Shown here: one piece after another, positions 6,348-37,594 of the stretch
How positions within the stretch are numbered: the stretch's first letter is position 1
Layout: each line of letters starts with the position of its first letter
IMG/VR virus record: IMGVR_UViG_3300020576_005257
Coordinates: 32,001-96,000 of that record
DNA: 64,000 bases
Strand: one strand, 5' to 3'
DNA from: a virus
Lineage: Duplodnaviria > Caudoviricetes
Program-made: the position numbers and the translations under genes
Notes under the pieces: generated by a model
Told to the model about the DNA's origin: nothing
The model's database searches: none
What the model saw: the letters and a program-made list of their open reading frames with translations, nothing else

Positions 6348-6872
6348 ATGTCAGTAATTCCCCCAAAATCAAATTATTATTTTAGGCCAAAAGATGGACA
6401 ATTCCAGGTTTGGCCTACTGATAAGTATGGTGAAACAGCTGCTGTTGTAACTGGAGTACTTTTAGGTGTCTGTTTAAGGCAAGATGAAGGTACTCCTAAG
6501 CAAAAAGGAAAAGTAGCTGTAGAGCCTTACACCTCTTTTGAAGTATCACTTAAGGATCCAGAGAAAAATGAATATTATGTGATTAAGTCAAAGAGTACAA
6601 TCAACTTCTCAAAGTTTCTTTGTTCAGCATTAGTGAACATAGAACCAGGAACTCCTCTTCAAATTAGTGTTAGACCTGGTACAGAGCAACCTAAAGTTAC
6701 TCTAGTACAAGTTCATGCTCAGTATGAAGATAACGGTCCTTGGCAAATTATTCTTTCTAACAGATTTGAAGGCGATCAAGATGAATTTCTTGAAATGGTT
6801 AAGAATCTTCCAGCCTATAAAGAATGGACAAAGAAAGAAGAAACACCAGCAGTTGAACTAACAGAAGGTTAA
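6348..6872 (+). CDS. hypothetical beta-rich protein with acidic tail (possible OB-fold ssDNA-binding protein)
   Basis: Strand-rich sequence and acidic C-terminus (EETPAVELTEG). Function is inferred only. Confidence 0.4.
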   Translation: MSVIPPKSNYYFRPKDGQFQVWPTDKYGETAAVVTGVLLGVCLRQDEGTPKQKGKVAVEPYTSFEVSLKDPEKNEYYVIKSKSTINFSKFLCSALVNIEPGTPLQISVRPGTEQPKVTLVQVHAQYEDNGPWQIILSNRFEGDQDEFLEMVKNLPAYKEWTKKEETPAVELTEG

Positions 6873-6903: not shown

Positions 6904-7539
6904 ATGAGAATATACCACGGAGCTATTAGAGCATCAAAGGATTTAGATTTGACTAATCCCCTAGACAAAGACTTTGATGATCTTTGTAAATATTTAAAAG
7001 TTTTCTTTCCTGTAAACTTTATACCTAAACAATGTACCATTGAGTTTTATGATGATGTCTTGTTTCGAAGACCAGAGATCTTTACTTTAACCAGACAGAT
7101 TCCAGCTAAATACTTTGATTATGGATACATTGAAATTTATAAGGGTCTTGCTTACTGCATATATTTTCCTGATCAGGAAAATTTAACTATATATACTGTA
7201 CATAAATCTACTTATGTAAACTATTTGCAATCTCTGAAAGGAGAGTTTGATTTAGAAGAGTGTATTAATAGACTACCTAAGGATAATGATTGGATTTTTC
7301 TTTGTTCTAATTACTGTGAGACTTTAACAGGAACTGGGAATAAGATACATCCTTGTCCTCAAAGTTATCCTAGATCATTCCCCCTTTATTGTCAAACTAC
7401 TTTCTATAGAAAACTAGTTGCTTATGGTATTACTGCTAAAGGTATGAGATCTGTAATGACAATAATGAAAGAAACAGATAATAAAGTTTTAAACAAAACT
7501 GAAATACTTCCTGGAAAATCTGATTATTTTATGAAATAA
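6904..7539 (+). CDS. conserved-Cys paralog family member 1 (putative E2-like fold)
   Basis: YKGLAYCIYF...YVNYL...WIFLCSNYCE...PCPQSYPRSFPLYCQTTFYRKL. Paralogy is clear; the E2 call is inference. Confidence 0.45.
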   Translation: MRIYHGAIRASKDLDLTNPLDKDFDDLCKYLKVFFPVNFIPKQCTIEFYDDVLFRRPEIFTLTRQIPAKYFDYGYIEIYKGLAYCIYFPDQENLTIYTVHKSTYVNYLQSLKGEFDLEECINRLPKDNDWIFLCSNYCETLTGTGNKIHPCPQSYPRSFPLYCQTTFYRKLVAYGITAKGMRSVMTIMKETDNKVLNKTEILPGKSDYFMK

Positions 7540-7543
7540 AAAT

Positions 7544-8161
7544 ATGGATATGTATCACGGTGAGATTGTTGAAAAATTTTCTTTGGATTTAAATAATCCA
7601 ATAGATAAAAGTTTCCAGGAGCTTTGTTCATTTTTAGGTAATATATTCAAAGCAGAACAAACATTATCTAGAGTTCAAATCATTTTTTCTGATAGTGTTT
7701 TAGATGGGGAAGATTTTACAGAATTACGAAGAATTCCCTTCTCAAAACATGATGCTGAAGGTTATGGTTTAATCTTTGCTGGCACAGCATATGGTTTGAA
7801 ATTTACTCAATCAGCTATTTGTGCTTATGCAGTACACAAGCTACATTATAAAACCTACTTAGAATCTTTTGACGATCTTAATGTAGAGGAATTAATGTCT
7901 ATCTTACCTAAAGATAGTGACTGGGTTTTTCTAGCTGGAAATTACTGTGAGGTATTAAGAGGTAGCGAGGATGAAGTTTATCCCTGCCCAATGTCAAATC
8001 CTATCTCCTTCCCAGTATATTGTCAGACTACCTTATTAAGAAAACTATCAACTTGTGGTATTAAATCTACAGGACTTTCTTCAGTTATGCACATTTATGA
8101 TAGTGATGATGAATTAGTTAAAACTGAAGTTGAACCTGGGTTTAATGACAATTTTTGGTAA
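7544..8161 (+). CDS. conserved-Cys paralog family member 2 (putative E2-like fold)
   Basis: FAGTAYGLKF...WVFLAGNYCE...PCPMSNPISFPVYCQTTLLRKL; close paralog of 6904. Confidence 0.45.
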   Translation: MDMYHGEIVEKFSLDLNNPIDKSFQELCSFLGNIFKAEQTLSRVQIIFSDSVLDGEDFTELRRIPFSKHDAEGYGLIFAGTAYGLKFTQSAICAYAVHKLHYKTYLESFDDLNVEELMSILPKDSDWVFLAGNYCEVLRGSEDEVYPCPMSNPISFPVYCQTTLLRKLSTCGIKSTGLSSVMHIYDSDDELVKTEVEPGFNDNFW

Positions 8162-8352
8162 AAAACCAATGTGTGTTAATTAATAGATATTTAAAGCAAC
8201 AGAAAAAAAAAGGAATTACTTTAGATCTTTTTAAAGTACAAACAATTCCTGTTAAATTGTCTAAGGAACAAATATCTAAAGATAAGAAAAAAGAATATTA
8301 TTGGGATGACTTTGATTGTACTCTCCAATGTGAAGATTATTATAAAAGCTAA
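8155..8352 (+). CDS. hypothetical protein
   Basis: 65-aa ORF; start uncertain. Confidence 0.4.
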   Translation: MVKNQCVLINRYLKQQKKKGITLDLFKVQTIPVKLSKEQISKDKKKEYYWDDFDCTLQCEDYYKS

Positions 8353-8368
8353 GTAATCTACCAAAACT

Positions 8369-8557
8369 ATGAAATATCCTTATAGTGGCCTACTAATTGC
8401 TCAAGAAGCACCAGATTTTAACGATCCTCAGTACCAAAGACTCCAGGATATATTAAATAAAGTTTCTTTTCTTGAGACTTTTACAATACAAAAAATTACC
8501 AAAATGGGTGCAGCACCTAAAGTGTTAGCACATGGCAAGGGAAAAACTAATGCATAA
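8369..8557 (+). CDS. truncated N-terminal paralog of the conserved-Cys family
   Basis: YPYSGLL...PDFNDPQYQRLQDILNKVSFLETFTI aligns with the N-terminus of 8532 (SYCGLV...PDLEETDELQRLRDLVKRLSNIDHFII). Confidence 0.55.
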   Translation: MKYPYSGLLIAQEAPDFNDPQYQRLQDILNKVSFLETFTIQKITKMGAAPKVLAHGKGKTNA

Positions 8558-9212
8558 ATCTTATTGTGGACTAGTCTTAAAGTCTTGGCCTGATTTAGAA
8601 GAAACAGACGAACTTCAACGTTTGAGGGATCTTGTCAAACGTTTATCTAATATTGATCATTTTATTATTGAGGAAGCTATTTTATTAGCTGGACAGTATC
8701 AAAGAAAACGCCCTTTGTGGTATACCAAGCATACTTTAGTTAATACTAAAGGAGTAAAAGAAAGCTTACTTAGAACTGTATCCAAAAATTTTCAACAAGA
8801 TTCTAGTTATTATGGTGACTTGTTTAATTTTAATGAAAAAGGTTCAAAAGTCAGTGCTATGTATTTTGGTAAAGTTTACTCTTTAACATCAATGTATAGC
8901 TCAATTTTTGTTGTAACTAGAAAAAACTATTTAGAGTTTATTGCTGCTGTTGGTTCTCCAAATATCGAAGAAGTAGAGCGGCTTGTACCTGATTTTGAGT
9001 TCCTTCCAATTGATCAATCTTGGTGTTTATTGGCTCCAGGATTTAGTGCTGTGGATGAGCATGTTGCTATGTCACCAATATTATGTCCTATATCATTAGA
9101 AACATTTATTTATACTTATTATTTACAACAACAAATGAGATACAGCGGTAATAATCTTGTTAAAAAAGGAGTTATTTATGCAGATGCTAAAAATAGAGAA
9201 AGAATCGGTTAA
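8532..9212 (+). CDS. conserved-Cys paralog family member 3 (Cys replaced by Ser)
   Basis: YFGKVYSL...VTRKNYLEFI...WCLLAPGFSA...CPISLETFIYT. Confidence 0.45.
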   Translation: MAREKLMHKSYCGLVLKSWPDLEETDELQRLRDLVKRLSNIDHFIIEEAILLAGQYQRKRPLWYTKHTLVNTKGVKESLLRTVSKNFQQDSSYYGDLFNFNEKGSKVSAMYFGKVYSLTSMYSSIFVVTRKNYLEFIAAVGSPNIEEVERLVPDFEFLPIDQSWCLLAPGFSAVDEHVAMSPILCPISLETFIYTYYLQQQMRYSGNNLVKKGVIYADAKNRERIG

Positions 9213-9960
9213 AACGGAACTAACACAAGAAAATAAATCTGTAAGAACTCCAGTTCCTAACCCTAAACTTAGAGCTTACTCGGGAGTAAATTTAGATCAC
9301 ATACTTTTAGAATCTCCAACTTCTAAATTTGAAGAAGAAATTTTTAATACTTTGAAAAGATTTCCTCATACTGGAGATTATAAAGTTTATAAATGTCTTT
9401 CTGTTGTATATCAGAATTATTATTATGATACTTTCAAAAATTTTACTAATATTACCTTAATACCTTGTAAAGTAGCATTATTACCGAAAGATGTTACTAT
9501 AGATTCTTTTAAACAATCTTCTTCTTTATATTTTGCTCCTGGTTCGTTTAAAAGAAAAAAAATAGATAAATCTAAATATATTCAACTTGGTCAATGTCAG
9601 TATCAAGATGGTGAAATTTATATAACTTACTTTGGAATTTCTTATTGTATAGAAATTAGATCTATGAAAATAATTCTAGCTTCTACTCAAGACTACTTAG
9701 AATTTTTAGAGGCTATTGGTTGTATTAATTTGAATCTTGAAAAAGAGACTTTGGTTAAAGAATCTATCCAAGTAATTGGATCCTCATTTTGTAATGTAAT
9801 AGATGGAGAAGGTGCTCATATTTTTACAACACCTTTAACTAACCCAACACCATTTTTTACTTATTTGTGTACTACTTTACTTGGCCATCTAACACACTAT
9901 CTACGAGTAAAAGATATTGCTAAGCCTTTAGACTCTAGATTCAAATCAAATGTTGAATAA
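9157..9960 (+). CDS. conserved-Cys paralog family member 4
   Basis: YFGISYCIEI...DYLEFL...VIGSSFCN...TNPTPFFTYLCTTLL. Confidence 0.45.
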   Translation: MLKKELFMQMLKIEKESVKTELTQENKSVRTPVPNPKLRAYSGVNLDHILLESPTSKFEEEIFNTLKRFPHTGDYKVYKCLSVVYQNYYYDTFKNFTNITLIPCKVALLPKDVTIDSFKQSSSLYFAPGSFKRKKIDKSKYIQLGQCQYQDGEIYITYFGISYCIEIRSMKIILASTQDYLEFLEAIGCINLNLEKETLVKESIQVIGSSFCNVIDGEGAHIFTTPLTNPTPFFTYLCTTLLGHLTHYLRVKDIAKPLDSRFKSNVE

Positions 9961-9963
9961 AAA

Positions 9964-10917
9964 ATGAAACCTCCTCTTACTTATCATACTCAATTAGTTT
10001 TCTTTCCTCAACAAGGTGAAAACTTAACACCTAAAGAAATTCACTTAGGAGAATTTCTAACAAATCCTGGTCATTTTGCAAATCATAAGTTTTCATTTGC
10101 AGTTAACAAAGATGGAATTCTTTATTCTTTTGATGAAGTTTTAAAATATGCTTTAAAATCTAATGAAGAACTTGTTGAGGCAGTATTTAGTCGTGGTTCT
10201 TTGTCTCCTTATCCTAATGTTTATTTTTCTTCTTTACCTATAGAAGAACTAAGAAAAGAGATTACTTTTCAATTACCAGTCCAAACGTATGATTATTTTG
10301 ATGCTCTTAAAGTAAGAAATATTAAAGAAACATTTATTGAAAATTCAGCTGAAGACTTTCTCAAAAGTTTTTCTCATCTTCCCCATTTACAACAACTTTC
10401 TATGAAAGCTTTTCCTGTTGAAGTTAGGCAGGAAGTTTACAATACTAAGTATCATTATAAACTAGGTTGTCCTTCTACATTTAAATTTAAACACGGAGAA
10501 AAATCATTCCAAAGTTTTTCCAAATATAAGCTAAATAAAGCCGCCCACAAACTTCTTCTTCCAGATAAATTTTCTACTTCTTATTTAGGCCCAGCTTACT
10601 TTGTTTCTTTTGGTGATTTAAATCTATATATAGTTGTAGCTAAAAAATCTGATTATCTTAAGTTTCTTAAGTGGCATATTTCTAAGTTTAAGTTTTGGAA
10701 CTATTCAAAGATTAAAAAGCAGTTACCTGCTGGGGACTATGTTCTTATTAGTACTTCTTTCTGTGAGAGATTTGATGATTGTAAAGATGGTTCACCACCA
10801 CTTCCACATCAAAGAAATATGACCTTAGATTTATTCCTTTCAACTACTCTTGTTATATACATTAAACAGAAGCTTAGATCTTCTCTGATGTTAACAGGAA
10901 TTGTTTTTTCTAAGTAA
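9964..10917 (+). CDS. conserved-Cys paralog family member 5
   Basis: YLGPAYFVSF...DYLKFL...DYVLISTSFCE...LPHQRNMTLDLFLSTTL. Confidence 0.45.
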   Translation: MKPPLTYHTQLVFFPQQGENLTPKEIHLGEFLTNPGHFANHKFSFAVNKDGILYSFDEVLKYALKSNEELVEAVFSRGSLSPYPNVYFSSLPIEELRKEITFQLPVQTYDYFDALKVRNIKETFIENSAEDFLKSFSHLPHLQQLSMKAFPVEVRQEVYNTKYHYKLGCPSTFKFKHGEKSFQSFSKYKLNKAAHKLLLPDKFSTSYLGPAYFVSFGDLNLYIVVAKKSDYLKFLKWHISKFKFWNYSKIKKQLPAGDYVLISTSFCERFDDCKDGSPPLPHQRNMTLDLFLSTTLVIYIKQKLRSSLMLTGIVFSK

Positions 10918-10935
10918 AGTTATTTTTTTTCCATT

Positions 10936-10996
10936 AAAAACCTATTATGGTTAGGAAACCTTTAGGCTAAAAAAGCTTTATATGGTTTAATTACCA
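10936..10996 (+). promoter_or_regulatory. two copies of the recurring AAAA(A/G)C-N6-TGGT-hairpin element upstream of the Ubl candidate
   Basis: AAAAAC-CTATTA-TGGTT (10936-10952) and AAAAGC-TTTATA-TGGTT (10971-10987), each followed by an ACC that closes a short hairpin. Related copies at 5017, 5552, 6303 and 13155. Confidence 0.4.
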
Positions 10997-11017
10997 ACTA
11001 GTTAAATAGGCAAACGT

Positions 11018-11512
11018 ATGGAAAATGTCAATAAAGTCACAACCCTTCTCTCCAACAAGTCGTTGAATGAAGGAACCACCGTTATCCTGTCCCTCTCCAA
11101 CAATGGAGACGGCGGAAAGCGAATTTCTGTCAATGAGAACTTGACTCTTGGTGAGATTGGTGTAAACCCCCAAGGTGGAGCAGCTGCTGAGCCTTCATTC
11201 GCTGATGTGCAGCTTCGAGTTGCTCAAATCAGTGCTGGTGCTGGTACTCCTGATTCTAAGGCTACGGCTATTAGAGCAGAAATGGATAGCTACCAAGCTC
11301 AGGTCGCTCAGTTCAAGCAAGCTGGCGGTCAGAACATCACTGATCGAGTCATGCAGGGAGTCTGCAACTGGCTCGTTGCTAACAAGGGTTTCACTACTGC
11401 TGATGAAGCTGGTAAGCCGAGAATCTCGGCTGCTGATCTTCAAGTTACCGCTATCCAGACTCAGGGTGGCGAAATGGTGTTCAACGTCGTCGGTTCGTCT
11501 GTCTGGGGTTAA
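11018..11512 (+). CDS. candidate ubiquitin-like (beta-grasp) modifier with helical insertion and exposed C-terminal Gly
   Basis: N-terminal TTVILSLSNNGDGGKRISVNENLTLGEI resembles the beta1-beta2-alpha1 pattern. C-terminal strand GGEMVFNVVGSSVWG* ends in Gly. ThiF gene 1.7 kb downstream. Codon use is distinct from the rest of the window. Confidence 0.5.
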   Translation: MENVNKVTTLLSNKSLNEGTTVILSLSNNGDGGKRISVNENLTLGEIGVNPQGGAAAEPSFADVQLRVAQISAGAGTPDSKATAIRAEMDSYQAQVAQFKQAGGQNITDRVMQGVCNWLVANKGFTTADEAGKPRISAADLQVTAIQTQGGEMVFNVVGSSVWG

Positions 11513-11526
11513 TCTCCTTTCATGAC

Positions 11527-11675
11527 GACCCTTCGGGGTTTGGGTATAACTAATCTTCTCGTATAGGTAGATGCGAGTTGCCGAAAAAAGAAGTTTAAAG
11601 TCACATTATCAGTGGTTGGTGTGACTACTTCTTTATCATTGTAGTGCTACCGCTAGCAATAGTGGTAGCCTACAA
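11527..11675 (+). ncRNA. structured intergenic RNA element with four hairpins
   Basis: GACCC-TTCG-GGGTT (11527-11540); CTCGTAT/ATGCGAG (11558-11577); AAAGAAGT..AGTCACA/TGTGACT-ACTTCTTT (11587-11634); TTGTAG-T-GCTACCGCTA-GCAA-TAGTGGTAGC-CTACAA (11639-11675). Confidence 0.6.
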
Positions 11676-11707
11676 CTTTACAATTTATTTCTTAAAAACT
11701 AATTCTC

Positions 11708-13156
11708 ATGGATAACATTAAAGCATGGCTTAAAAAACATGGTATTGAATCTCATTATGCTCTAGGCCTTAGTGTTCTAGACTTAGCTCTTCTTACAATA
11801 CCAGCTGAAGGTGAAGCTGTTCTCAGCCGGAAATATTCTTCTCAGTCTAAAGCTATAAATCAAAATAGTAACTTTATTATTAAGAACAAAGTTATTTCTA
11901 CTGGAAAGATTGGTAAGAAGTTGGATAAGCCTTCTCAGTATGATGGTATTGATAGTTATATTGTTGACTTGAAACCATACAAAACCTTAGAAGAATTCCC
12001 AGTTGATGAAGATGGTTTGTTAGCTATTCCTAGTTTTATTCAAGAGTTACAATCTGGAAAACATCCTTTTTCTTTTCTGCTTAAACCTGATGGAACACCG
12101 CAAAATAATATTATAATTAATTTTTACAATCTTATTAGTTCTTACGCTTTAAATCCTCTAAGTTCTGAAAATAAAGAAATTGTTCCTTCTTTAACTGAAC
12201 ATGGATCTCAGTTTAAATTCAGGTTTCGCCCAGTACTTAAAACTACACAACTATTGATTACTGATACTGAATGGTATCAAAATATTGTGCATAATTTAGA
12301 AGTTTTAAGTCAAATTCTTCCTTATTCTAGATCTAGAGACTATTTAGCGGCTTTATGGAACTATCCTGAATATGTCAAAACTTCTACTGCCTCAGCCGAA
12401 ACTGAATATAACAAAAAACATCAATTCAGTCTTGAAGAGTTATATAAAGCTGTAGAAACTTCACACTACAAACAACGTAGTGGTTTTAATGCTGATAGAG
12501 CTTCTTATATAGAAGTTAATACTCCAGTTGAAGAGATTGAAAAGATGAAAGAACAGGTTCTACATCATTGTAGATTTATTCCTAATCTGGAAATTAAGGA
12601 TCTTAGAAAGATCAGCTTAGTTTATAACTCTGATGGTGATTTTGCTAATACAGCTGATGCAGTAAATCATCCTAAAACTAAGAGAGATATTGTTTGGTCA
12701 GCTAAAGAAGGTTACCATGTTGTTCCAGTAAATAAAGACTTAGGTCCGCAATGGGGTAGACCAGTAATCTATGTCGGGGAAGCTTGGAGAATTTACTTCA
12801 CAATTGGAGGTGTTGATTATTTACAAAATAACTTTGTTAACTTCGTCACTCCTGAACAATTCCTTGATTGTTATACCAAATTACGACCTGATCTTATTGA
12901 AGAAGGTTGGAAGCCATGGTCAGATTTAATTTTCATTTCAACTGATTGGTGTGAAAGAAATGGTGCTAGAGTTAAACAAACTACTGGTGCTATTGATTTA
13001 CAATCACCCCATCAAAAGAGAATTGCCTTGTGGCAATGGATTATTGGACCACTTGCAGGTAAATGTTTACAAAATGGAAAACCAATAACATCTTTGGGTC
13101 TTCAAGTAGTAAATGGTGCTGATCATAGTTCTCGTCTTAAGAAAATGATATATTAA
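11708..13156 (+). CDS. large member of the conserved-Cys family (putative cognate E2-like enzyme, domain in C-terminal ~140 aa)
   Basis: YVGEAWRIYF...FVTPEQFL...DLIFISTDWCE...SPHQKRIALWQWI; lies between the Ubl candidate and ThiF. Confidence 0.45.
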   Translation: MDNIKAWLKKHGIESHYALGLSVLDLALLTIPAEGEAVLSRKYSSQSKAINQNSNFIIKNKVISTGKIGKKLDKPSQYDGIDSYIVDLKPYKTLEEFPVDEDGLLAIPSFIQELQSGKHPFSFLLKPDGTPQNNIIINFYNLISSYALNPLSSENKEIVPSLTEHGSQFKFRFRPVLKTTQLLITDTEWYQNIVHNLEVLSQILPYSRSRDYLAALWNYPEYVKTSTASAETEYNKKHQFSLEELYKAVETSHYKQRSGFNADRASYIEVNTPVEEIEKMKEQVLHHCRFIPNLEIKDLRKISLVYNSDGDFANTADAVNHPKTKRDIVWSAKEGYHVVPVNKDLGPQWGRPVIYVGEAWRIYFTIGGVDYLQNNFVNFVTPEQFLDCYTKLRPDLIEEGWKPWSDLIFISTDWCERNGARVKQTTGAIDLQSPHQKRIALWQWIIGPLAGKCLQNGKPITSLGLQVVNGADHSSRLKKMIY

Positions 13157-13213
13157 AAAATCACGTTGGGTGTAAAAACCTATCTACCGTAAATTAGGAA
13201 AAAAATAAACCAC

Positions 13214-13999
13214 ATGTATAACTTCCACTTAGTAGGAGCCGGGTCACTAGGTAGTGGCATCGCAATTGAAATCTCTCGCCGTCTTGCAGCTCTAACATGG
13301 CCAGCAAAGCTTGTTATTTACGATGATGATACAGTTGAAGAACGGAATATCTTCTCTCAAGATTTTCTTCCTTCTGACATTGGTAAAGCTAAAGCAGAAG
13401 CAGTAGCTGAGAAATGTGCTCAATACAACTTTGTGGAAGTTGAGTGGCAAAAGGTCCGAGTTGTTGAAGATAATATCAACAAGATTATGGAACTTGATCC
13501 ATTATCAATTATTATTGATGCAGTAGATAATATTGAAGCTCGCCACTTGCTTTGGTACCACACCCTTGCTACAGGTGTTCCTGTTATGCATATGGGAATG
13601 ACCCCAGAAGGAGCTGGTTTAATCAGTTGGACTTGTGAAACACATCATGATAGTTTCAATTTAAGTCCTATGAATATGACTGCTGAAAGTATTAAGCAGC
13701 TTACTTCTGCTCATGACAATAAAATGCCACCCTGCGAATTAAATGGTTTTAGATCTTTGATTTTGAATACCGTACTAGCAGGAGTAAATTCGTTATTTAT
13801 TGCTATTGGTAAAGATTCTTTAAAAGAAATCCAAATTGATGGTGAGCTTCAGGAGTCTCCTGGCACTCTCACTACTTGGAATACTCACATGAGGGGATTT
13901 GAACTTAATCCTCAAATTACTGCTGTAGTGCCTTGGCCAAAGAGTGAAGAGGAACTCTTTATCCTAGAAGCTCAAAGAATGGCTTTAGCAAATGCATAA
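13214..13999 (+). CDS. ThiF/MoeB/E1-family adenylyltransferase
   Basis: LVGAGSLGS nucleotide loop, IYDDDTVEERNIFSQDF, IGKAKAEA, IIDAVDNIEAR. Candidate thioester Cys in PPCE; no Zn-binding CxxC pairs. Confidence 0.9.
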   Translation: MYNFHLVGAGSLGSGIAIEISRRLAALTWPAKLVIYDDDTVEERNIFSQDFLPSDIGKAKAEAVAEKCAQYNFVEVEWQKVRVVEDNINKIMELDPLSIIIDAVDNIEARHLLWYHTLATGVPVMHMGMTPEGAGLISWTCETHHDSFNLSPMNMTAESIKQLTSAHDNKMPPCELNGFRSLILNTVLAGVNSLFIAIGKDSLKEIQIDGELQESPGTLTTWNTHMRGFELNPQITAVVPWPKSEEELFILEAQRMALANA

Positions 14000-16574
14000 T
14001 ATTGATCCACGGTTAGTAACTGATTTAGTTGCAGCTGTAAAACATAACTACGAACATAGAGGCTTACCCATGGCAAAAAAAGAAAATACAACTACTGAAC
14101 AAGTTATTGATAACACAGAGGAAAAAGTAATTATTCCTCCTGGGGATCAAGAAGCTGATACTCAAGAAGAAGTAGCCGTTGCTACTATTGATAAGAAGAA
14201 GGAAGAAGATTTAGGTGAAGTTTTTCCAAACGAAACTAATGTTTTAGTTGTTAGTCCTGGTTTAACTGATAAACATAAGTCTTGTCCATTTGGTGTAGTG
14301 AAATCTCATCACTATACTAATAATGGCGCATATCCTCCAGCCCTCCGGTATAAAATTTCATTCTTCCAGAACGAAGTTGAAGATTTAGTCGAATTTTTTG
14401 CGACTGAAGTTTATGACTTACAACGTATTCTTTCTGAAGATGTTCAAGTAGGGGATACTGCTTATCATAAACAGTCTGGAAAAGTTCTGAATATTACTCG
14501 TGTTACTGTAATTAACAATGAGGATAGAGCATTTGGTTGGTGGCGAGATGGAGTTACTGAAAAGTGTGAACATGTTTCAGTAAAAGATCTTTATCCACTT
14601 ATCAATTCCTTTACTGATCTTACTCAAAGAGGAAAAGTTCAACAAAGTGCTAAAGCTCCTAATACTTCAGCTTTGTTTACTTTGAACAACTCTAGTCCAT
14701 CTAAGGATTCAAGTAGTCAGAGTAGAATTGGTTATGGTGGAAGTTCTTCTAGTTCTGGTTCTGCATACTCTAGTACTAAAACTGGAATTCCAGTTATTGA
14801 TAATCATACTACTAGTAAAGATCCTATCTTAGTTGAAATCGTAGGTGGCGGTAAGTTTACTATTCAACTTACTCCTAAAGAACTTTTAAATGCAACAAAG
14901 GTTCTTGACTTTGAAATCATTGAATGCGGGGGAGATGATAATGTCTCTAAAGATGTTGTCAAACTTATCCTACCATTAGAACGGGCTAGATTTAGTAAAA
15001 CTACCAAAGAGGTACTTTGCTGTGCTTTTGATGCAACTAACGAGTATATGCAAACTATGGGCTTTGGTAAGCTTGGTTTTGCCGCACGAACTTGGTATAA
15101 AGCTCATCCTAAAACAGTCAGTAGTGGCCTACCAGCAGCGTTTACATTTAGTACTCTAAATGAACTAGTTGCTCCTTATGGCTTAGGTATTAGCCGAATC
15201 TTTATCAAGAAGGGGCTAGCTGCTTGGGAAGATACTAAAGCTTGGGAAGAGATTCTCGGAGTTAATCCTGCTGCATCTATGGATAAAACAGTATCTAACG
15301 CTGATTTTATTGATATGATGGGTGGGCCAGAAATGGCAGCTATGGCTGGTTATAATGTTAATGACTGGAGGTTGGAGTATGTAGATAATGTTCCTTCCGA
15401 TATTCCAAGAGTCGGTATGGCTGGTGCTAGTGGTGGATTTGCTTCTGGTGGGGGTCATGCTAGTTTCTACGAGCCCCGTCAACCCATGACAAATTGGACG
15501 ATGGCCTTACAATACGACAGGATTGAAAACTGCAATTGGAAAGGAGTTCCTCCAGTATTTGAATATGCTGATGGAGATTTTGTTCTGAATCTTGATATTG
15601 CTGAATGTCTTGATGTCAATGGAAAGAGACTCAAAGTTTCTGTCTATGACAATATGTCTATTGGACCAGATCCTAAAATTGGTTATTGGTGGGATCCTCC
15701 AACCTACAAAAGCTACACCCCGGCATCAAGCTCACATGGCGGGGGTCAGTCTCACTACAACTATGAAGAGTTTATGGGGAGCGACACAGAGCGTCCTAAA
15801 GGATCTCTTCCTTTAGGTGTGGAAAAAAAAAATCTAATAGACAAGAAAGGAAACTCCTCAGGGAGCAGCGGCGGATCAATAGCAGGAAACAGGAAGCTGA
15901 GCGAATGGATATCAAGCCGCAGCGACGAGGCAGAAGGTGTCGCAAGAATTCTCGCTAGTTTGACCCCTGGTGCTGATGAGGAACTGTCTATAATTCAAAA
16001 TGCTCTTTCTTATGACTCTATAAAAAAGATTGTTAAAACTCCTGATAAGCAGCCATTTTGGAAACACTCCAAAATGGCCCTTAAAAGGACATCTATTATC
16101 AATGCTGTAAAGTCAAGAAATAATCCTCAACTTGAATACATAGGATTGTTTACAGCTGCACTTGGTTATAATTTAGATTCATCAATTGATTGGGAATACT
16201 CTGATTTTCATTATGAGAAAAGAAAAGTTGACGTAATTGTTGATAAATTACTAATTGCATCTAAAAAGTTTGAATTTATTCAATGGTTTGATCTTTTAGT
16301 TGAATCTGATATTAACTCTGGTATAACCATGATTCAAGAGTTGGAAGGTGGTCTTGTCACCTTCCTTGAACTTATTCAAGATGGTGCTACTAGAGCTTTA
16401 ACTGATGTTCAAATTGAAGAAATGTTTATGATTGATCTTGAACCAATCATGGCCCTTCTTCATAAAGCTACTGTAGTAGAAAGAGCTGTTGTTCTTCTAC
16501 GATTAGCAGAACAGGAACCAGAAGAGATTATACTTTTCATGTTAACTCTCTTCATTCTTTTTGCATACGTATAA
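13992..16574 (+). CDS. 860-aa multidomain protein: SH3-like barrels, Ser/Gly linkers, possible Cys-His peptidase-like core, helical C-terminus
   Basis: VQVGDTAYHKQSGKVLNITRV..FGWW (SH3/YodC-like); EVLCCAFDATNEY and GGGHASFY; low-complexity linkers. Confidence 0.45.
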   Translation: MHNIDPRLVTDLVAAVKHNYEHRGLPMAKKENTTTEQVIDNTEEKVIIPPGDQEADTQEEVAVATIDKKKEEDLGEVFPNETNVLVVSPGLTDKHKSCPFGVVKSHHYTNNGAYPPALRYKISFFQNEVEDLVEFFATEVYDLQRILSEDVQVGDTAYHKQSGKVLNITRVTVINNEDRAFGWWRDGVTEKCEHVSVKDLYPLINSFTDLTQRGKVQQSAKAPNTSALFTLNNSSPSKDSSSQSRIGYGGSSSSSGSAYSSTKTGIPVIDNHTTSKDPILVEIVGGGKFTIQLTPKELLNATKVLDFEIIECGGDDNVSKDVVKLILPLERARFSKTTKEVLCCAFDATNEYMQTMGFGKLGFAARTWYKAHPKTVSSGLPAAFTFSTLNELVAPYGLGISRIFIKKGLAAWEDTKAWEEILGVNPAASMDKTVSNADFIDMMGGPEMAAMAGYNVNDWRLEYVDNVPSDIPRVGMAGASGGFASGGGHASFYEPRQPMTNWTMALQYDRIENCNWKGVPPVFEYADGDFVLNLDIAECLDVNGKRLKVSVYDNMSIGPDPKIGYWWDPPTYKSYTPASSSHGGGQSHYNYEEFMGSDTERPKGSLPLGVEKKNLIDKKGNSSGSSGGSIAGNRKLSEWISSRSDEAEGVARILASLTPGADEELSIIQNALSYDSIKKIVKTPDKQPFWKHSKMALKRTSIINAVKSRNNPQLEYIGLFTAALGYNLDSSIDWEYSDFHYEKRKVDVIVDKLLIASKKFEFIQWFDLLVESDINSGITMIQELEGGLVTFLELIQDGATRALTDVQIEEMFMIDLEPIMALLHKATVVERAVVLLRLAEQEPEEIILFMLTLFILFAYV

Positions 16575-22667: not shown

Positions 22668-23882
22668 ATGATTCCTGAATTTCGAGCAGAAATAAACTAT
22701 CCAGAAGCTAAGCCTGAGTGGAAACAGGCTCTTCTGGATTGTGTTGAGACAGATTTGTCTCAACTTATTCGTAATGCCCCTTGGGTTAGTATGATTCTAG
22801 CCAACTTAGAAGTCATAGGTATTACTTCTAGACTAGCTAATATATCTGTTAGAAGGCTTTCTTTAAATTGTTGGCCTAAAGCTGAAGGAAATGAGGCAGG
22901 TACTTGTTACTATGAGTACCCAAAACCAGAGAGATATACTTTGTTAAATCACTTAGTAACTCACTTAGTTTTCAAACACACCTCTATCCCAGAAGGATTG
23001 GATGACGGTTTAGTAGTAATTAGTCAGGATGCTACTGTTAACAACGCCATTAAGAATAGTGCTAATTCAAAGCTAAGTAGCTTCCCAGGACATATAACAA
23101 CTAATAGTGCAGGAGATACGTTAATTATTGGTGAGTTTGAAATTAAAATTCCCCAAATTGATTCTTTAGATTGGAAGGAACTTTATAACATTCTTTTTGA
23201 CCATGGTCTTGATACTACTGGTTGGGAATCTGATATAGAAAATGATCCTAATATTCTCCCTGAAGAGATAGAGAAGTTTGAGGATAAGGTCATTTCTGTT
23301 CTAACTCAAATGGAAGACAAGATCCCCGATCCTTATAAGAGACATTTATGGAAAATGTTAACTCCTAAGGTTACTTGGGCTGACAAAATAAGAATGATTC
23401 TTAATAGTATTGTTGGTAGAACTGATTTCTCCTACAATCCTAATCCTAGAAAAATTCATATTGGTATTCTTCCAACTATCACTAAACCTGCTGGTGGTAC
23501 AGTGTTTCTTGCTTTTGATACTTCAGCTAGTATGAGCAGAGAAGAAATTGAACAGGGCATTGCAGAAGCTAGACAAATCCAAAAACAATTTGGCTGTGCT
23601 ATGGAAATCATAGTTTGTGATCAAGAAGTTACTAAGATACATAGCTTTGATGGTTCTTCTGAACTTGGTTGGGCAGACTTAGAAATGCCTGGTCAAAGAG
23701 GAACAAGTTTTGTTCCAGTGTTTGATTACATAGCTGAAACTAAAGGACCAGCACCATCAGTTCTGGTATACTGTACTGATCTGGAAGGACACTTTCCTGA
23801 TAAAGGACCCAGTTATCCAGTTATTTGGTTAACCAAGAATCAAAATCATCCAGTGCCATTTGGTAAAATAGTACTAGTCTAA
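22668..23882 (+). CDS. DUF2201-type metallopeptidase-like plus vWA domain protein (MoxR partner)
   Basis: vWA MIDAS DTSASMS, GTSFVPVF, YCTDLEG, YPVIW. The N-terminal HExxH position reads HLVTH. Confidence 0.85.
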   Translation: MIPEFRAEINYPEAKPEWKQALLDCVETDLSQLIRNAPWVSMILANLEVIGITSRLANISVRRLSLNCWPKAEGNEAGTCYYEYPKPERYTLLNHLVTHLVFKHTSIPEGLDDGLVVISQDATVNNAIKNSANSKLSSFPGHITTNSAGDTLIIGEFEIKIPQIDSLDWKELYNILFDHGLDTTGWESDIENDPNILPEEIEKFEDKVISVLTQMEDKIPDPYKRHLWKMLTPKVTWADKIRMILNSIVGRTDFSYNPNPRKIHIGILPTITKPAGGTVFLAFDTSASMSREEIEQGIAEARQIQKQFGCAMEIIVCDQEVTKIHSFDGSSELGWADLEMPGQRGTSFVPVFDYIAETKGPAPSVLVYCTDLEGHFPDKGPSYPVIWLTKNQNHPVPFGKIVLV

Positions 23883-34699: not shown

Positions 34700-35260
34700 A
34701 TGAGTTATATGTTTTCTGGTGCTATTGGTAATATTGACAAACAAAGAAAGAATTTCCTTCAGGTTGAGAAAGAGATAAGAGAATTATTTCTCCCTTTAGG
34801 ACATCTCTTCAAAATAAAAAATATTAAGGAAGTACATGCTCAGCTCCATACTGACTATAAAACAAAGTATGTTGAACGGCGTAGAATTCCTTTAAATGCA
34901 TCTATGTATCTAGGACCAGCTTTTGAAATAAACATAAATACTGGAGACTGGGATACTGCTATTTTTGCGGTAACGAGAGATGATTATTTAACTTATATTG
35001 AAACCATCCAAAAAAATAAAGATATAGTTGAGGAAATTAAAGAACTTATTCCAAAAGATAACTTAATCTACTTAGGTGCAAGTTATTGTGAGGTTCTTAA
35101 AAAATGTATTGAAGGAACAGTTCCCTGTCCTGTATCTAATCCTAGAAGTTTGAAAGCTTATATATATGGTAATCTTGTTCAAAAGTGCTATGATAGTGGA
35201 AATAGAAATAAAATTAATAGGGCAGTAACATTTTCTAAGGGCAGAAAAATAAGAATCTAA
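34700..35260 (+). CDS. conserved-Cys paralog family member 7 (dispersed copy)
   Basis: YLGPAFEINI...VTRDDYLTYI...LIYLGASYCE...PCPVSNPRSLKAYIYGNL. Confidence 0.45.
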   Translation: MSYMFSGAIGNIDKQRKNFLQVEKEIRELFLPLGHLFKIKNIKEVHAQLHTDYKTKYVERRRIPLNASMYLGPAFEININTGDWDTAIFAVTRDDYLTYIETIQKNKDIVEEIKELIPKDNLIYLGASYCEVLKKCIEGTVPCPVSNPRSLKAYIYGNLVQKCYDSGNRNKINRAVTFSKGRKIRI

Positions 35261-35503
35261 ATGAGTAGTCCTATTTTTAATTATTCTAGTTATTCTCATA
35301 TCTATGAGAATAAACGTCTTTATAAATATGAACAAGGACCTCCATTCTGGAATCTTAAATTTACTGTACAACGAATCAATATTATAGATATTCAATATTA
35401 TATTAATTTTCATATTCCATATGATTTAAATTTGGAATCTTTTCTTCCTCCTTGGAATTATTCAATTTGGTTGAATGATTATAGAAAAAAATTCAACAAC
35501 TAA
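35261..35503 (+). CDS. hypothetical aromatic-rich protein
   Basis: 80-aa ORF. Confidence 0.5.
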   Translation: MSSPIFNYSSYSHIYENKRLYKYEQGPPFWNLKFTVQRINIIDIQYYINFHIPYDLNLESFLPPWNYSIWLNDYRKKFNN

Positions 35504-35741
35504 AAATTTAATATCTTTTATTATGAGCACACTACAATTTTCATATGAGGCGAGCGAGTCTTATACTTATTGTAATATTCCTTGTTGGAGTCAATCTCAA
35601 CTCTCTTTTTGTAGTCTAGATAGAAATCTAGAAATGTTTAAGATGAATATTAGATATCCTTATTTTGTAGATTTGGAAGAATGGAAAGAAGCGAGATTTA
35701 TTTTGGAAGCTTTTCGACAAATTAGAAAAGGTCGTCGCTAA
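35475..35741 (+). CDS. hypothetical protein
   Basis: 88-aa ORF; true start may be internal. Confidence 0.5.
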   Translation: MIIEKNSTTKNLISFIMSTLQFSYEASESYTYCNIPCWSQSQLSFCSLDRNLEMFKMNIRYPYFVDLEEWKEARFILEAFRQIRKGRR

Positions 35742-35769
35742 TTTATTTTGAGTGAGTGGTTATTAATCA

Positions 35770-36888: not shown

Positions 36889-36889
36889 T

Positions 36890-37594
36890 ATGGATTATAG
36901 GAATCAATTATATAGCGTACAAAAAGTATCAGATACTCTGGTGTTAGCAACACAAAAAGATGAAAACATTGAAGAGCTAAGATCTCATTTTAAGAAATTA
37001 GGTTATGAGAGAATTAGATGTTATAAAGGATTTGGTACTTTAGCAGGATCCAATTATGAGAACCAACGTAAAATTAGAATAATTCCTCCTGTTCTTGGTT
37101 ATCCAAAACCAAATGAAGACAACTGTCTTTTAGAAAACTATGTTATTCAATCTAGAGATTATGGTCATTGTCATCTTTATATTGGTCCAATTTATAGTGT
37201 AAGATTACCTTATTCTGGTGGTTCTAGAGCTACATATATGCCTTTTGGCTTTATTCTCAGAGATGATTACTTAGCTTTTCTTAAAGCAATTAATACACCA
37301 AAAAAAGATTATCAAGAAATTTTAACTATAATTCCTGACACTAAATTTATTTACTTGTGTTCTCAAATGTGTGAACAATTTGACCGTAACCATATGGGAA
37401 CTATATGCCCAGTTTCAAAACCGCGATCATTAGAGAATTTCCTTTATACAGTTCTTCTTCAAAGAATGGTTGATCATAATTACAAAATGCTCCCTAAAGG
37501 TATAACTGTAGTTAATAAAGGTGGATCCAATCTTAGAAAGGCTTTTTCTGATCCAGGAAAACAAATTGTGTCTGCAAGACAAATAAAACGATGA
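36890..37594 (+). CDS. conserved-Cys paralog family member 8 (dispersed copy)
   Basis: YIGPIYSVRL...LRDDYLAFL...FIYLCSQMCE...CPVSKPRSLENFLYTVLL. Confidence 0.45.
   Translation: MDYRNQLYSVQKVSDTLVLATQKDENIEELRSHFKKLGYERIRCYKGFGTLAGSNYENQRKIRIIPPVLGYPKPNEDNCLLENYVIQSRDYGHCHLYIGPIYSVRLPYSGGSRATYMPFGFILRDDYLAFLKAINTPKKDYQEILTIIPDTKFIYLCSQMCEQFDRNHMGTICPVSKPRSLENFLYTVLLQRMVDHNYKMLPKGITVVNKGGSNLRKAFSDPGKQIVSARQIKR

What the first reader, a model, noticed from the sequence alone, without database searches (positions are those of the whole stretch)
6904..16574. Candidate phage-encoded ubiquitin-like conjugation system: Ubl, E1, expanded E2-like family and possible peptidase
Seen: a clear ThiF/E1-family enzyme (13214) with a candidate thioester Cys (PPCE) and no thiamine, molybdopterin or tRNA-thiolation genes nearby. 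Two genes upstream is a protein ending in a free Gly with beta-grasp-like termini (11018). Between them is a 482-aa protein whose C-terminal domain has five tandem paralogs just upstream and two more at 34.7 and 36.9 kb; seven of the eight keep one Cys. Downstream is an 860-aa protein with a possible Cys/His pair. Established: E1s adenylate a C-terminal Gly and pass Ubls to an E2 Cys, and bacterial E1/E2 systems (CBASS Cap2, Bil) act in anti-phage defence. Inference: a phage carrying its own Ubl-E1-E2 cascade, with diversified E2-like proteins supplying target specificity, perhaps to tag host proteins or jam host Ubl defences. I do not know of a characterised phage system with this architecture.
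Basis: partly seen in the sequence, partly recalled or inferred. Interest (0 to 1): 0.93.

Follow-up and report, generated by a model that had tools for sequence, protein, structure and literature searches.

The report
Phage E1 enzyme with glycine-ended tag
An uncultured 235-kb phage and its relatives always carry the same four genes together: a ubiquitin-type activating enzyme, a very highly expressed 160-residue protein that ends in glycine, a cysteine-bearing protein of no known fold, and a probable cysteine protease. This looks like a virus-run protein-tagging system built mostly from unfamiliar parts.

Summary
The window is part of a 235-kb uncultured jumbo phage. A real E1/ThiF-superfamily enzyme (13214-13999) sits in a four-gene module found in all 8 related phage loci for which I hold DNA: small protein, Cys-domain protein, E1, large Cys/His protein.

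The small protein (11018-11512) has an invariant glycine that is the last residue in 13 of 15 homologues. Its codon bias matches the major head protein. A complex model with controls (0.65 against 0.07) places its tail in the E1 adenylation site. Its fold is only weakly beta-grasp-like (Z 4-5.4).

The "E2-like" family is real, with eight copies in this phage and the Cys kept in 60 of 61 sequences. A confident model (pLDDT 91) matches no UBC/E2 or any other solved fold, and profiles match no E2 family. It is therefore at most an E2 analogue, not an E2.

The 860-aa protein keeps Cys...His...Asp at papain-like spacing; its fold was not tested. No JAB peptidase and no sulfur-relay genes occur in the genome.

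The most likely reading is a phage-run tag-activation and conjugation pathway. The E1-tag step is supported; the rest is inferred.

This scan has noted other phage Ubl/JAB/E1 cassettes on other DNA, with different composition. I found no paper describing this module.

The parts
11018..11512 (+). Small protein (164 aa), the candidate tag. It ends ...GSSVWG. The model has two beta-hairpins flanking a three-helix insert.
   Evidence: The family has 14 aligned members with an invariant G164, terminal in 12 of them; the other two carry 1-2 extra residues. L011 also ends in WG. AF2 gives pLDDT 79. Beta-grasp folds align across residues 14-164 at Z 4.1-5.4. The complex with the E1 scores 0.65 against a best control of 0.07. 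GC3 is 0.46 against about 0.20 for neighbours.
11513..11707 (+). Structured intergenic RNA after the tag gene: four hairpins, one of them terminator-like at 11599-11626.
   Evidence: RNA folding gives -68.5 kcal/mol, z -6.1, with 0 of 200 shuffles folding as well.
11708..13156 (+). Mid protein (482 aa). The N-terminal half is variable. The C-terminal Cys domain (about residues 274-482) carries the invariant 'WC(E/Q)R' motif with C415.
   Evidence: Orthologues lie directly upstream of the E1 in all loci. The AF2 model of the domain has pLDDT 91 and pTM 0.86. It has no structural neighbour.
13214..13999 (+). Minimal E1/ThiF-like adenylating enzyme (261 aa) with an invariant Cys174 in 'PPCEL'.
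   Evidence: Pfam ThiF at 1.3e-15. PDB profile hits to Uba6/Uba1, ThiF and MoeB. Invariant residues are G8, G10, G13, D37, D39, R44, N45, Q49, K60, D102, D105, N106, R110 and C174.
13992..16574 (+). Large protein (860 aa). It overlaps the E1 stop codon by 8 nt. The conserved core (about residues 318-560) has invariant C344, H372, H489 and D509 and is a candidate papain-like thiol peptidase or ligase.
   Evidence: Alignments of 7 orthologues; L011 keeps C, H, H and D. There is no Pfam or PDB sequence match.
6904..7539 (+). Free-standing Cys-domain paralog 1 (211 aa).
7544..8161 (+). Free-standing Cys-domain paralog 2 (205 aa).
8532..9212 (+). Free-standing Cys-domain paralog 3 (226 aa); its motif is 'SWCLL'.
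9157..9960 (+). Cys-domain paralog 4 (up to 267 aa; the start codon is uncertain).
9964..10917 (+). Cys-domain paralog 5 (317 aa, with a longer N-terminal region).
34700..35260 (+). Distal Cys-domain paralog 6 (186 aa).
   Evidence: Hit by the orthologue-only HMM at 2.9e-10; pairwise links.
36890..37594 (+). Distal Cys-domain paralog 7 (234 aa). It starts 2 nt after the stop of the IMPDH/GMP-reductase-like gene.

Best explanation
This is a phage-run tag-activation and conjugation module with four linked steps.

(1) The tag. The 164-aa small protein is made in very large amounts and exposes a conserved C-terminal Gly.

(2) Activation. The minimal homodimeric E1 binds the small protein, threads its tail into the ATP site and adenylates the terminal Gly. 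It then probably takes it onto the invariant Cys174 as a thioester.

(3) Transfer. The acyl group probably passes to the single invariant Cys of the adjacent Cys-domain protein. That protein would act as a functional analogue of an E2 but is not a UBC-fold E2. The seven free-standing paralogs, each with a different N-terminal part, would direct the tag to different targets.

(4) Trimming or ligation. The translationally coupled large protein, with a Cys...His...Asp core at papain-like spacing, would trim the rare precursor forms (tags ending WGSN or SSGF), remove the tag, or act as the ligase.

Status of each step:
- Shown or supported: the E1's identity, the strict four-gene linkage, the terminal-Gly conservation, and the modelled E1-tag geometry.
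- Inferred: the thioester relay, the role of the Cys domain, the peptidase role, and the targets.
For: E1 identity:
- Pfam ThiF at 1.3e-15; PDB profile hits to Uba6/Uba1, ThiF and MoeB.
- The full adenylation signature and Cys174 are invariant.

Linkage:
- The order small, mid, E1, big occurs in 8 of 8 loci with DNA, and the same gene sizes appear in a ninth gene table.
- Genes overlap or abut: the E1 and big genes overlap by 8 nt in the window.

Tag:
- The Gly is invariant and is the last residue in 13 of 15 homologues; the two exceptions carry only 1-2 extra residues.
- Complex model of the E1 dimer plus tag: score 0.65 against a best control of 0.07. That mark was reached by 58 of 80 solved complexes and 2 of 110 mismatched pairs. 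The three runs share at least 69% of contacts, and partner pLDDT is at least 73.
- In that model tag residues 158-164 touch E1 residues 10-13 (the Gly-rich ATP loop), 103-107 and 110 (DxxDN..R) and 127-136, which include the family-invariant G133 and G135.
- E1 residue 232 touches tag residues 23 and 156, and E1 residue 223 touches 25 and 158. This implies that the first and last strands pair in parallel, as in ubiquitin. That topology is my inference, not a tool output.
- Beta-grasp domains align across both hairpins at Z 4.1-5.4.

Abundance:
- Tag gene GC3 is 0.46 against about 0.20 for neighbours. That equals the major head protein, at 0.48.
- A structured, terminator-like RNA follows the tag gene.
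- Both features fit a reagent that is consumed stoichiometrically.

Cys domain:
- The Cys is kept in 60 of 61 sequences, with no conserved His, Asp or Asn partner. This is the pattern of an acyl carrier rather than a hydrolase.

Big protein:
- C344...H489 are 145 residues apart and H489...D509 are 20 apart, all invariant. Papain's C25/H159/N175 spacing, recalled from my own knowledge, is similar.
Against: - The tag is twice the size of known Ubls, ends WG rather than GG, and matches no Ubl family by sequence.
- Foldseek found no beta-grasp for the tag, and the VIA Z-scores are in the range where chance arrangements occur.
- The Cys domain has no detectable UBC fold or E2 sequence signal, so the E2-like step rests on position and one invariant Cys.
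- The complex pass may owe something to the model's memory of solved E1-Ubl complexes, and the job differed from the calibration: it used my own alignments and three chains.
- The big protein's fold was not tested.
- No target, no isopeptide and no thioester has been observed. The phage is uncultured.
Confidence: 0.55

Rival explanations
1. Sulfur-carrier system. The E1 adenylates the small protein's Gly so that it can be converted to a thiocarboxylate, as with ThiS, MoaD, TtuB or CysO. The Cys-domain protein would relay a persulfide, and the sulfur would go into a phage-specific cofactor, nucleotide or DNA/RNA modification.
For: - The E1 is a minimal MoeB/ThiF-sized enzyme of 261 aa with no UFD or separate Cys domain. 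Its best NCBIfam similarities are to ThiF models, though all fall far below their cut-offs.
- An invariant Cys in the E1 and a single invariant Cys in the neighbour are also what a persulfide relay would need.
Against: - The genome has no ThiS-family protein, rhodanese, PP-loop thiolase or MoaE, and no real ThiG. The only ThiG signal is 17 bits inside the IMPDH-like gene.
- The tag is expressed like a capsid protein. That is unexpected for a catalytic carrier that is recycled.
- Eight diversified Cys-domain paralogs and a Cys/His peptidase-like partner have no role in known sulfur relays.
- Host enzymes could still supply the missing steps.
Confidence: 0.12
2. The E1 activates the tag's Gly, but the acceptor is not a protein lysine. 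It could be a lipid head group (like Atg8-PE), a cell-wall or nucleic-acid amine, or a small molecule. The Cys-domain paralogs would choose among acceptors.
For: - The evidence for the E1-tag step is the same as in the best explanation.
- The transfer protein is not a UBC E2, so there is no reason to assume lysine chemistry.
- Very high tag expression would suit coating an abundant non-protein target.
- The window's large protein ends in a hydrophobic stretch.
Against: - Nothing in the locus points to a particular non-protein acceptor.
- The hydrophobic tail of the large protein is not conserved in orthologues.
- Every characterised bacterial E1/Ubl conjugation system targets proteins (PMC11601596, PMC10097602).
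Confidence: 0.13
3. The linkage does not reflect an enzyme-substrate pair. The E1-like enzyme acts on something else, such as a small-molecule carboxylate or an RNA base as TcdA does. The small protein would be an unrelated abundant early or structural protein that happens to be syntenic.
For: - ThiF-like enzymes carry out many non-Ubl adenylations (review PMC12596934, seen only in the hit list). TcdA and MccB appear among the PDB hits.
- The tag has no sequence match to any Ubl.
- Fold support is weak.
Against: - An invariant Gly fixed at the extreme C-terminus in 13 of 15 homologues is hard to explain for a protein that is not C-terminally activated.
- The E1 and the small protein are found only together: the E1 family has 13 other clusters and the small-protein family 10, all from the same set of phages.
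- The complex model passes with clean controls and places the tail in the ATP site.
Confidence: 0.15

Closest known systems
Bil (bacterial ISG15-like) anti-phage operons BilABCD (Hor et al., bioRxiv 10.1101/2023.09.04.556158; Chambers et al., PMC10557695; as summarised in PMC11601596)
   Same: It has separate genes for a tag with an exposed C-terminal Gly, an E1, a Cys-bearing transfer protein and a peptidase. There is no E3, so target choice is proposed to lie in the transfer protein.
   Different: - It is encoded by a lytic-type jumbo phage, not by a host defence island.
- The E1 is a single 261-aa adenylation domain, not IAD-AAD-CYS. PADLOC BilD scores only 9.5e-5 over residues 3-113.
- There is no JAB peptidase in the genome.
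- The transfer protein has no UBC fold signal.
- The tag is 150-167 aa with a helical insert and ends WG.
- The transfer-protein family is expanded to eight copies.
Bub (6E/DUF6527) operons, Types I and II (Ye et al. 2024, PMC11601596)
   Same: It is a diverged, non-canonical ubiquitination-like pathway with a minimal E1, an unusual peptidase family in place of or beside JAB, and architecturally diverse tags (PMC11601603).
   Different: - Bub uses Ubl-E2 and JAB-E1, or E2-E1, fusions. It also uses serine/oxyester chemistry and the Ser-His peptidase BubE.
- Here all genes are separate, and the E1 and its neighbour each keep an invariant Cys.
- The candidate peptidase here has Cys/His/Asp.
- No DUF6527 or other Pfam hit was found.
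MoeB-MoaD and ThiF-ThiS (bacterial E1-like enzymes with sulfur-carrier proteins; PDB 1JW9, 1ZUD)
   Same: It has a minimal homodimer-sized E1 of about 250 aa whose Rossmann core aligns at 2e-9 to 4e-11. The partner's C-terminal Gly is modelled in the ATP site. A Cys lies about 175-185 residues into the enzyme.
   Different: - The partner is not a ThiS/MoaD-family protein, is twice as long and ends WG rather than GG.
- No sulfur donor or acceptor genes are present.
- The E1 scores far below every ThiF and MoeB equivalog cut-off.
- It is accompanied by Cys-domain and Cys/His proteins that those pathways lack.
Canonical phage-borne E2-JAB-E1 cassettes, for example locus L012 on a 102-kb IMG/VR contig, and similar cassettes noted earlier in this scan (unchecked AI notes)
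   Same: They are virus-encoded E1-centred cassettes in early or replication gene blocks.
   Different: - Those have a recognisable Prok-E2_D (4.5e-14) and a weak Prok-JAB match (E 0.0042, 17.4 bits, below the 25-bit cut-off) next to the ThiF gene.
- The present module has neither.
- Its three partner families are absent from those loci.

Membership tests
E1/ThiF/MoeB superfamily (PF00899) | Rossmann-like adenylation domain with a GxGxxG nucleotide loop | tested here: met
   Pfam at 1.3e-15 over residues 5-130. G8, G10 and G13 are invariant. PDB profile hits reach 1e-12.
E1/ThiF/MoeB superfamily (PF00899) | Catalytic Asp (Mg/ATP) in DxxDN, plus Arg/Lys phosphate ligands | tested here: met
   D102, D105, N106, R110, K60, R44, N45 and Q49 are invariant in 13 sequences. 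The canonical 'NxxRQ' Arg is replaced, and an invariant Arg sits one residue before the Asn.
E1/ThiF/MoeB superfamily (PF00899) | Membership of a named equivalog (ThiF, MoeB, UbaA, PRTRC-ThiF, TcdA, Cap2, BilD) | tested here: not met
   All NCBIfam hits score 14-61 bits against cut-offs of 145-750. PADLOC E1-E2 and BilD models match only the Rossmann core. This is a separate branch.
E1/ThiF/MoeB superfamily (PF00899) | Catalytic Cys that takes the acyl group (thioester) | tested here: inconclusive
   C174 in 'PPCEL' is invariant and lies at a position similar to ThiF C184 and MoeB C187 (from my own knowledge). The C-terminal half does not align to any solved E1, and no chemistry was tested.
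Ubiquitin-like (beta-grasp) modifiers | Beta-grasp fold | tested here: inconclusive
   The AF2 model has pLDDT 79 and a bb-aaa-bb layout. Foldseek found nothing. VIA wide returned only helical matches. In the VIA second look, these folds aligned across residues 14-164: protein L Z 5.4 (65 aligned, 3.0 A), SATB1 ULD 4.5, PB1 4.4, ubiquitin variant 4.2 (70 aligned, 3.6 A) and Get5 UBL 4.1. Parallel pairing of the first and last strands is inferred from shared E1 contacts.
Ubiquitin-like (beta-grasp) modifiers | Exposed C-terminal Gly (usually Gly-Gly), sometimes made as a short precursor | tested here: met
   The Gly is invariant and terminal in 13 of 15 homologues; two have 1-2 extra residues. 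The penultimate residue is Trp rather than Gly, so the GG form is not met.
Ubiquitin-like (beta-grasp) modifiers | Binds its E1 with the tail in the adenylation site | tested here: met
   This is a model only. Score 0.65 against a best control of 0.07; 58 of 80 solved and 2 of 110 mismatched pairs reached the mark; runs agree in at least 69% of contacts; partner pLDDT is at least 73. Tail residues 158-164 touch E1 residues 10-13, 103-107 and 110. The model supports binding but does not show it.
Ubiquitin-like (beta-grasp) modifiers | Sequence membership of a Ubl family (ubiquitin, ThiS/MoaD and others) | tested here: not met
   No Pfam hit at E 0.1. No PDB profile hit better than 0.07. PF02597 is absent from the genome.
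E2 / UBC-fold conjugating enzymes (UQ_con, Prok-E2_A-E) | UBC fold | tested here: inconclusive
   The model has pLDDT 91 and pTM 0.86. Foldseek PDB best E is 0.31 and BFVD best E is 0.12. VIA wide gives a best Z of 4.3 among 48,161 chains. The only UBC-superfold rows are Vps23 UEV at Z 2.9 and RWD domains at Z about 3.4.
E2 / UBC-fold conjugating enzymes (UQ_con, Prok-E2_A-E) | Sequence match to an E2 family; HPN motif upstream of the Cys | tested here: not met
   None of 14 members matches any E2 Pfam at E up to 10. There is no PDB profile hit and no PADLOC hit. hhalign against a genuine Prok-E2_D gives probability 0.1%. No conserved His-Pro-Asn occurs, and no His, Asn or Asp is conserved at 60% or more near the Cys.
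E2 / UBC-fold conjugating enzymes (UQ_con, Prok-E2_A-E) | Single essential catalytic Cys | tested here: met
   The Cys is present in 60 of 61 family members and in all eight copies in this phage.
Bil system (BilABCD) | JAB/JAMM peptidase BilC and an IAD-AAD-CYS E1 (PMC11601596) | tested here: not met
   PF14464 is absent from the 235-kb genome, while the control search rang in 9 of 14 genomes. The E1 is one 261-aa domain.
Bub system (Types I and II) | Ubl-E2 and JAB-E1, or E2-E1, fusions; BubE/DUF6527; Ser-based oxyester chemistry (PMC11601596) | tested here: not met
   All four genes are separate. There are no Pfam hits beyond ThiF. Cys rather than Ser is invariant in the E1 and its neighbour.
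Sulfur-carrier pathways (ThiS/ThiF, MoaD/MoeB, TtuB/TtuC) | Sulfur donor (rhodanese) and a thiocarboxylate-consuming enzyme (ThiG, MoaE, TtuA-type PP-loop) in the system | tested here: not met
   None is present in the genome. The 17-bit ThiG signal lies inside the IMPDH-like gene. Host-encoded partners cannot be excluded.
Papain-like (clan CA) cysteine peptidases / transglutaminase-like thiol enzymes | Cys...His...Asp/Asn in that order with suitable spacing | tested here: met
   C344, H489 and D509 are invariant, with spacings of 145 and 20 residues, and are kept in L011. This is sequence pattern only.
Papain-like (clan CA) cysteine peptidases / transglutaminase-like thiol enzymes | Papain-like fold, or a sequence match to a peptidase family | not tested
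Sequence searches found nothing.

The most novel reading that the evidence does not exclude
A clade of jumbo phages runs its own protein-tagging pathway in which only the E1 is recognisably related to ubiquitin machinery. The tag would be a 160-residue, capsid-level-abundant protein with a minimal beta-grasp-like core. It would be passed through a thioester carrier of a previously unseen fold. That carrier has diversified into as many as eight paralogs per genome, which would serve as target-specific adaptors. The pathway would remodel host or phage proteins during infection.
Probability: 0.3. Interest if true: 0.9.

Novelty: new variant of a known kind. Interest (0 to 1): 0.74.

Why it matters
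Ubiquitin-like conjugation in bacteria has so far been characterised as a host weapon against phages (CBASS Cap2, Bil, Bub). A phage-encoded pathway would show the same chemistry used from the viral side.

Here three of the four components belong to no known family. If the Cys domain does carry the tag as a thioester, it would be an E2 analogue that arose independently of the UBC fold. Its eightfold expansion would then offer a natural model for how target specificity is built without E3 ligases.

The tag's capsid-level expression suggests mass modification of an abundant target. That could be host machinery, a defence system, or a phage structure.

The module is also a practical test case. 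It is small (about 5.5 kb), self-contained, and can be expressed in a laboratory host even though the phage is uncultured.

Tried and rejected
Searches that found nothing:
- Megablast of the 9.7-kb region and tblastn of the E1 against 50,697 GenBank phage records gave no match. No cultured relative is available.
- The search for related loci with the single E1 in viral contigs found only a remote ThiF.
- With the neighbouring mini-RNA-polymerase gene it found nothing. I therefore could not ask whether clade members exist that lack the module.
- The genome search 'relatives' is not available for virus records.
- Profiles of the tag, the Cys domain and the large protein against all PDB sequences gave nothing meaningful.
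- Pfam, PHROGs, NCBIfam and PADLOC gave nothing for any component except the E1.
- The last homology search, on the large protein, returned only five unannotated relatives. Low-complexity words probably swamped the candidate list.

Structure searches:
- Tag: Foldseek PDB found none. VIA wide returned only helical-hairpin matches at Z 5.8 or less.
- Cys domain: Foldseek PDB, BFVD and VIA wide found nothing above background.
- hhalign of the Cys domain against a Prok-E2_D and against the large-protein core found no relation.

Uninformative or unavailable:
- The UQ_con search of the genome is uninformative because the control rang nowhere.
- Model coordinates are not exposed to scripts, so strand order could only be inferred from the complex contact list.

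Readings rejected:
- A Bil or Bub system: no JAB, no fusions, and a single-domain E1.
- A thiamine or molybdopterin gene set: no partner genes.
- A microcin-C-like MccB system: MccB matches at only 2e-4 over residues 3-85, and its substrate is a heptapeptide ending in Asn, not a 160-aa protein ending in Gly (plus my own knowledge).

Full report
**Context.** The window is bases 32001-96000 of a single 234,927-base virus record judged 95% complete. All genes in the region run on the + strand. The neighbourhood holds early and replication-type functions: an SF2 helicase, a DUF2201 VWA/metallopeptidase protein, a DnaB-like helicase, UDG, ThyX and family A DNA polymerase. No tRNA lies in the window. 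No GenBank phage record resembles the region at DNA or protein level.

**The E1.** The 261-aa product of 13214-13999 matches Pfam ThiF at 1.3e-15. A profile of 13 homologues hits the active adenylation domains of Uba6 and Uba1 (1e-12), ThiF (4e-11) and MoeB (2e-9). It also hits TcdA, SAE2, UBA3, UBA5, Uba4, MccB and Cap2.
- Only residues about 3-138 align. The C-terminal half is lineage-specific.
- Across the family the nucleotide loop (G8, G10, G13) is invariant. So are D37, D39, R44, N45, Q49, K60, D102, D105, N106 and R110, and Cys174 in 'PPCEL'.
- The protein scores far below the curated cut-off of every named equivalog. In PADLOC it matches only the Rossmann part of the E1-E2 and BilD models.
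- It is therefore a genuine, probably active E1-like adenylating enzyme of a separate branch.

**Linkage.** The E1 family is small, with 13 other clusters among 5.8 billion proteins.
- For every member on a long enough contig the same order recurs: a 150-167-aa gene, a 434-651-aa gene, the E1, then a 530-940-aa gene.
- BLASTP confirms that all four are orthologous across six loci.
- HMMs find the same four genes, in order, on a more distant 252-kb IMG/VR contig, L011.
- Remote ThiF-like genes in other viral contigs lack these partners. One of them, L012, instead has a canonical Prok-E2_D / JAB / ThiF cassette.
- The genes are packed or overlapping. In the window the E1 and the large gene overlap by 8 nt.

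**The small protein.**
- Fourteen aligned homologues share an invariant Gly. It is the very last residue in twelve, and L011 adds a thirteenth. One homologue ends WGSN and one SSGF. A fixed terminal Gly with occasional short extensions is the pattern of Ubl modifiers and their precursors.
- The family occurs only in this phage clade.
- AF2 gives a fairly confident model (pLDDT 79) with two beta-hairpins flanking three helices.
- Foldseek finds nothing. An all-against-all VIA search is dominated by the helical insert.
- In a second look, the rows that span both hairpins are beta-grasp domains: protein L B1 (Z 5.4, 65 of 65 residues, 3.0 A), the SATB1 ubiquitin-like domain (4.5), Cdc24 PB1 (4.4), streptokinase alpha (4.2), a ubiquitin variant (4.2, 70 aligned, 3.6 A) and the Get5 UBL (4.1).
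- These scores lie in a range where chance arrangements occur, so I count the fold as weakly supported.

**The E1-tag complex.**
- The score was 0.65 against a best control of 0.07. That mark was reached by 58 of 80 solved complexes and 2 of 110 mismatched pairs. The three runs agree in at least 69% of contacts, and partner pLDDT is at least 73.
- The counts hold only roughly, because my own alignments and three chains were used. A pass can also reflect memory of solved E1-Ubl complexes.
- The geometry is informative. Tag residues 158-164 touch E1 residues 10-13, 103-107 and 110, which are the ATP loop and the DxxDN..R motif. The tag's last strand runs along E1 residues 127-136, which contain the family-invariant G133 and G135.
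- E1 residue 232 touches tag residues 23 and 156, and E1 residue 223 touches 25 and 158. This implies that the first and last strands lie side by side and parallel, as in ubiquitin. That is my inference from the contact list.

**Expression.**
- The tag gene has GC 0.50 and GC3 0.46, while its neighbours have GC3 of 0.14-0.28.
- Genome-wide, such bias is shared by a gene cluster at 207-216 kb and by the major head protein, with GC3 0.48 (phrog_3922 at 6.5e-7).
- The 195-nt gap after the tag gene folds into four hairpins (z -6.1), one of them terminator-like.
- Both features suggest that the tag is made in large excess over the enzymes. That fits a reagent that is consumed better than a recycled carrier.

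**The Cys-domain family.**
- Eight copies occur in this genome, and only eight.
- The seven free-standing copies are linked pairwise at E 1e-5 to 1e-49. An HMM built solely from other phages' mid proteins finds three of them, the best at 3e-10. The paralogy is therefore not a circular result.
- Relatives also carry extra copies next to the module.
- An exhaustive profile search of 1.84 billion representatives finds just 95 members. The domain is either C-terminal in 430-650-aa proteins or free-standing.
- In 61 aligned domains the Cys is present in 60, a Gly in all and a Pro in 58. No His, Asp or Asn is conserved.
- The AF2 model is confident (pLDDT 91, pTM 0.86) but has no structural neighbour. 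Foldseek gives a best E of 0.31 against the PDB and 0.12 against viral models. VIA gives a best Z of 4.3 among 48,161 chains, where models without clear matches typically reach 7-8.
- The only UBC-superfold rows are a UEV domain at Z 2.9 and RWD domains near Z 3.4.
- No E2 family matches by Pfam, PDB profile, PADLOC or hhalign against a genuine phage Prok-E2_D.
- I therefore do not file it as an E2. A lone invariant Cys, a fixed position beside the E1, and paralogs with varied N-termini are what a thioester carrier with target-selecting modules would look like. That is inference.

**The large protein.**
- Its flanks are variable and rich in low-complexity linkers.
- A core of about 240 residues is 35-48% identical across loci. 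C344 ('CAFDAT'), H372 ('WYKxHP'), H489 ('GGHAS..GPR') and D509 are invariant, and L011 keeps them.
- The order Cys...His...Asp and the spacings of 145 and 20 residues resemble papain-like peptidases (my own knowledge).
- A trimming or deconjugating peptidase would account for the two extended tags. A transglutaminase-like ligase role is also possible.

**Rivals.**
- A sulfur-carrier system is disfavoured. The genome lacks ThiS, rhodanese, PP-loop thiolases, MoaE and a true ThiG, and the tag's expression level is too high. Host partners cannot be excluded.
- A non-protein acceptor for the activated tag remains open.
- Coincidental synteny is unlikely, given the terminal-Gly conservation and the strict co-occurrence of the genes.

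**Comparison and novelty.**
- By the definitions in PMC11601596, Bil requires a JAB peptidase and an IAD-AAD-CYS E1. Bub requires fused components, BubE and serine chemistry. Neither fits.
- The jumbo-phage survey PMC7824862 does not mention E1 or Ubl genes. Four literature searches found no description of a phage-run E1/Ubl pathway.
- Earlier notes of this scan describe other phage Ubl/JAB/E1 cassettes on other DNA. Those are unchecked AI notes and concern cassettes with recognisable JAB and E2 parts. The L012 cassette I verified is of that kind.
- The present module is a different, more divergent variant confined to one small clade. I rate it a new variant of a known kind.
- I am about 70% confident in the E1-tag activation step. 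I am about 55% confident that the module performs conjugation roughly as described.

Noticed in passing
window 11018-11512, compared with genome 181742-182968 (locus L020:743-1969, - strand): The tag gene's GC3 (0.46) is about twice that of all neighbours. It equals that of the major head protein (0.48). A cluster of unannotated genes at genome 207-216 kb shares the bias.
   Followed up: partly
window 11513-11707: The 195-nt intergenic gap folds into four hairpins (-68.5 kcal/mol, z -6.1). One is terminator-like, at 11599-11626. It may set the tag-to-enzyme expression ratio.
   Followed up: partly
window 34700-37594: An IMPDH/GMP-reductase-like gene (35770-36888, Pfam 2e-94) is bracketed by the two distal Cys-domain paralogs. 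The second paralog starts 2 nt after the IMPDH stop codon, which hints at a functional tie between a paralog and nucleotide metabolism.
   Followed up: no
L012:6169-8762 (IMGVR_UViG_3300029288_000110, 102 kb): An unrelated viral contig carries a canonical Prok-E2_D (4.5e-14), a weak Prok-JAB match (E 0.0042, 17.4 bits, below the 25-bit cut-off) and a ThiF (1.3e-18) cassette. This is a second, more conventional kind of virus-borne E1 system.
   Followed up: partly
window 16530-16574 (C-terminus of the 860-aa protein): The window's large protein ends in a hydrophobic stretch (...IILFMLTLFILFAYV) that looks like a membrane anchor. It is not conserved in the orthologues.
   Followed up: no
P0064 (residues 245-408): This is the one family member in which the otherwise universal Cys is replaced by Tyr ('DWYED'). 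It may be an inactive or decoy copy.
   Followed up: no
window 6348-6872 and 8155-8557: A 174-aa ORF lies just upstream of the paralog array, and two small ORFs of 62-65 aa lie between paralogs 2 and 3. None has a family match. phmmer weakly links the region 8357-8554 to paralog 3 (E 0.0076), so it may be a remnant or an extended start.
   Followed up: no
window 22668-23882; L003 and L004 downstream regions: A DUF2201 VWA / putative metallopeptidase gene lies a few kb downstream of the module in the window and in relatives, after the mini-RNA-polymerase genes.
   Followed up: no
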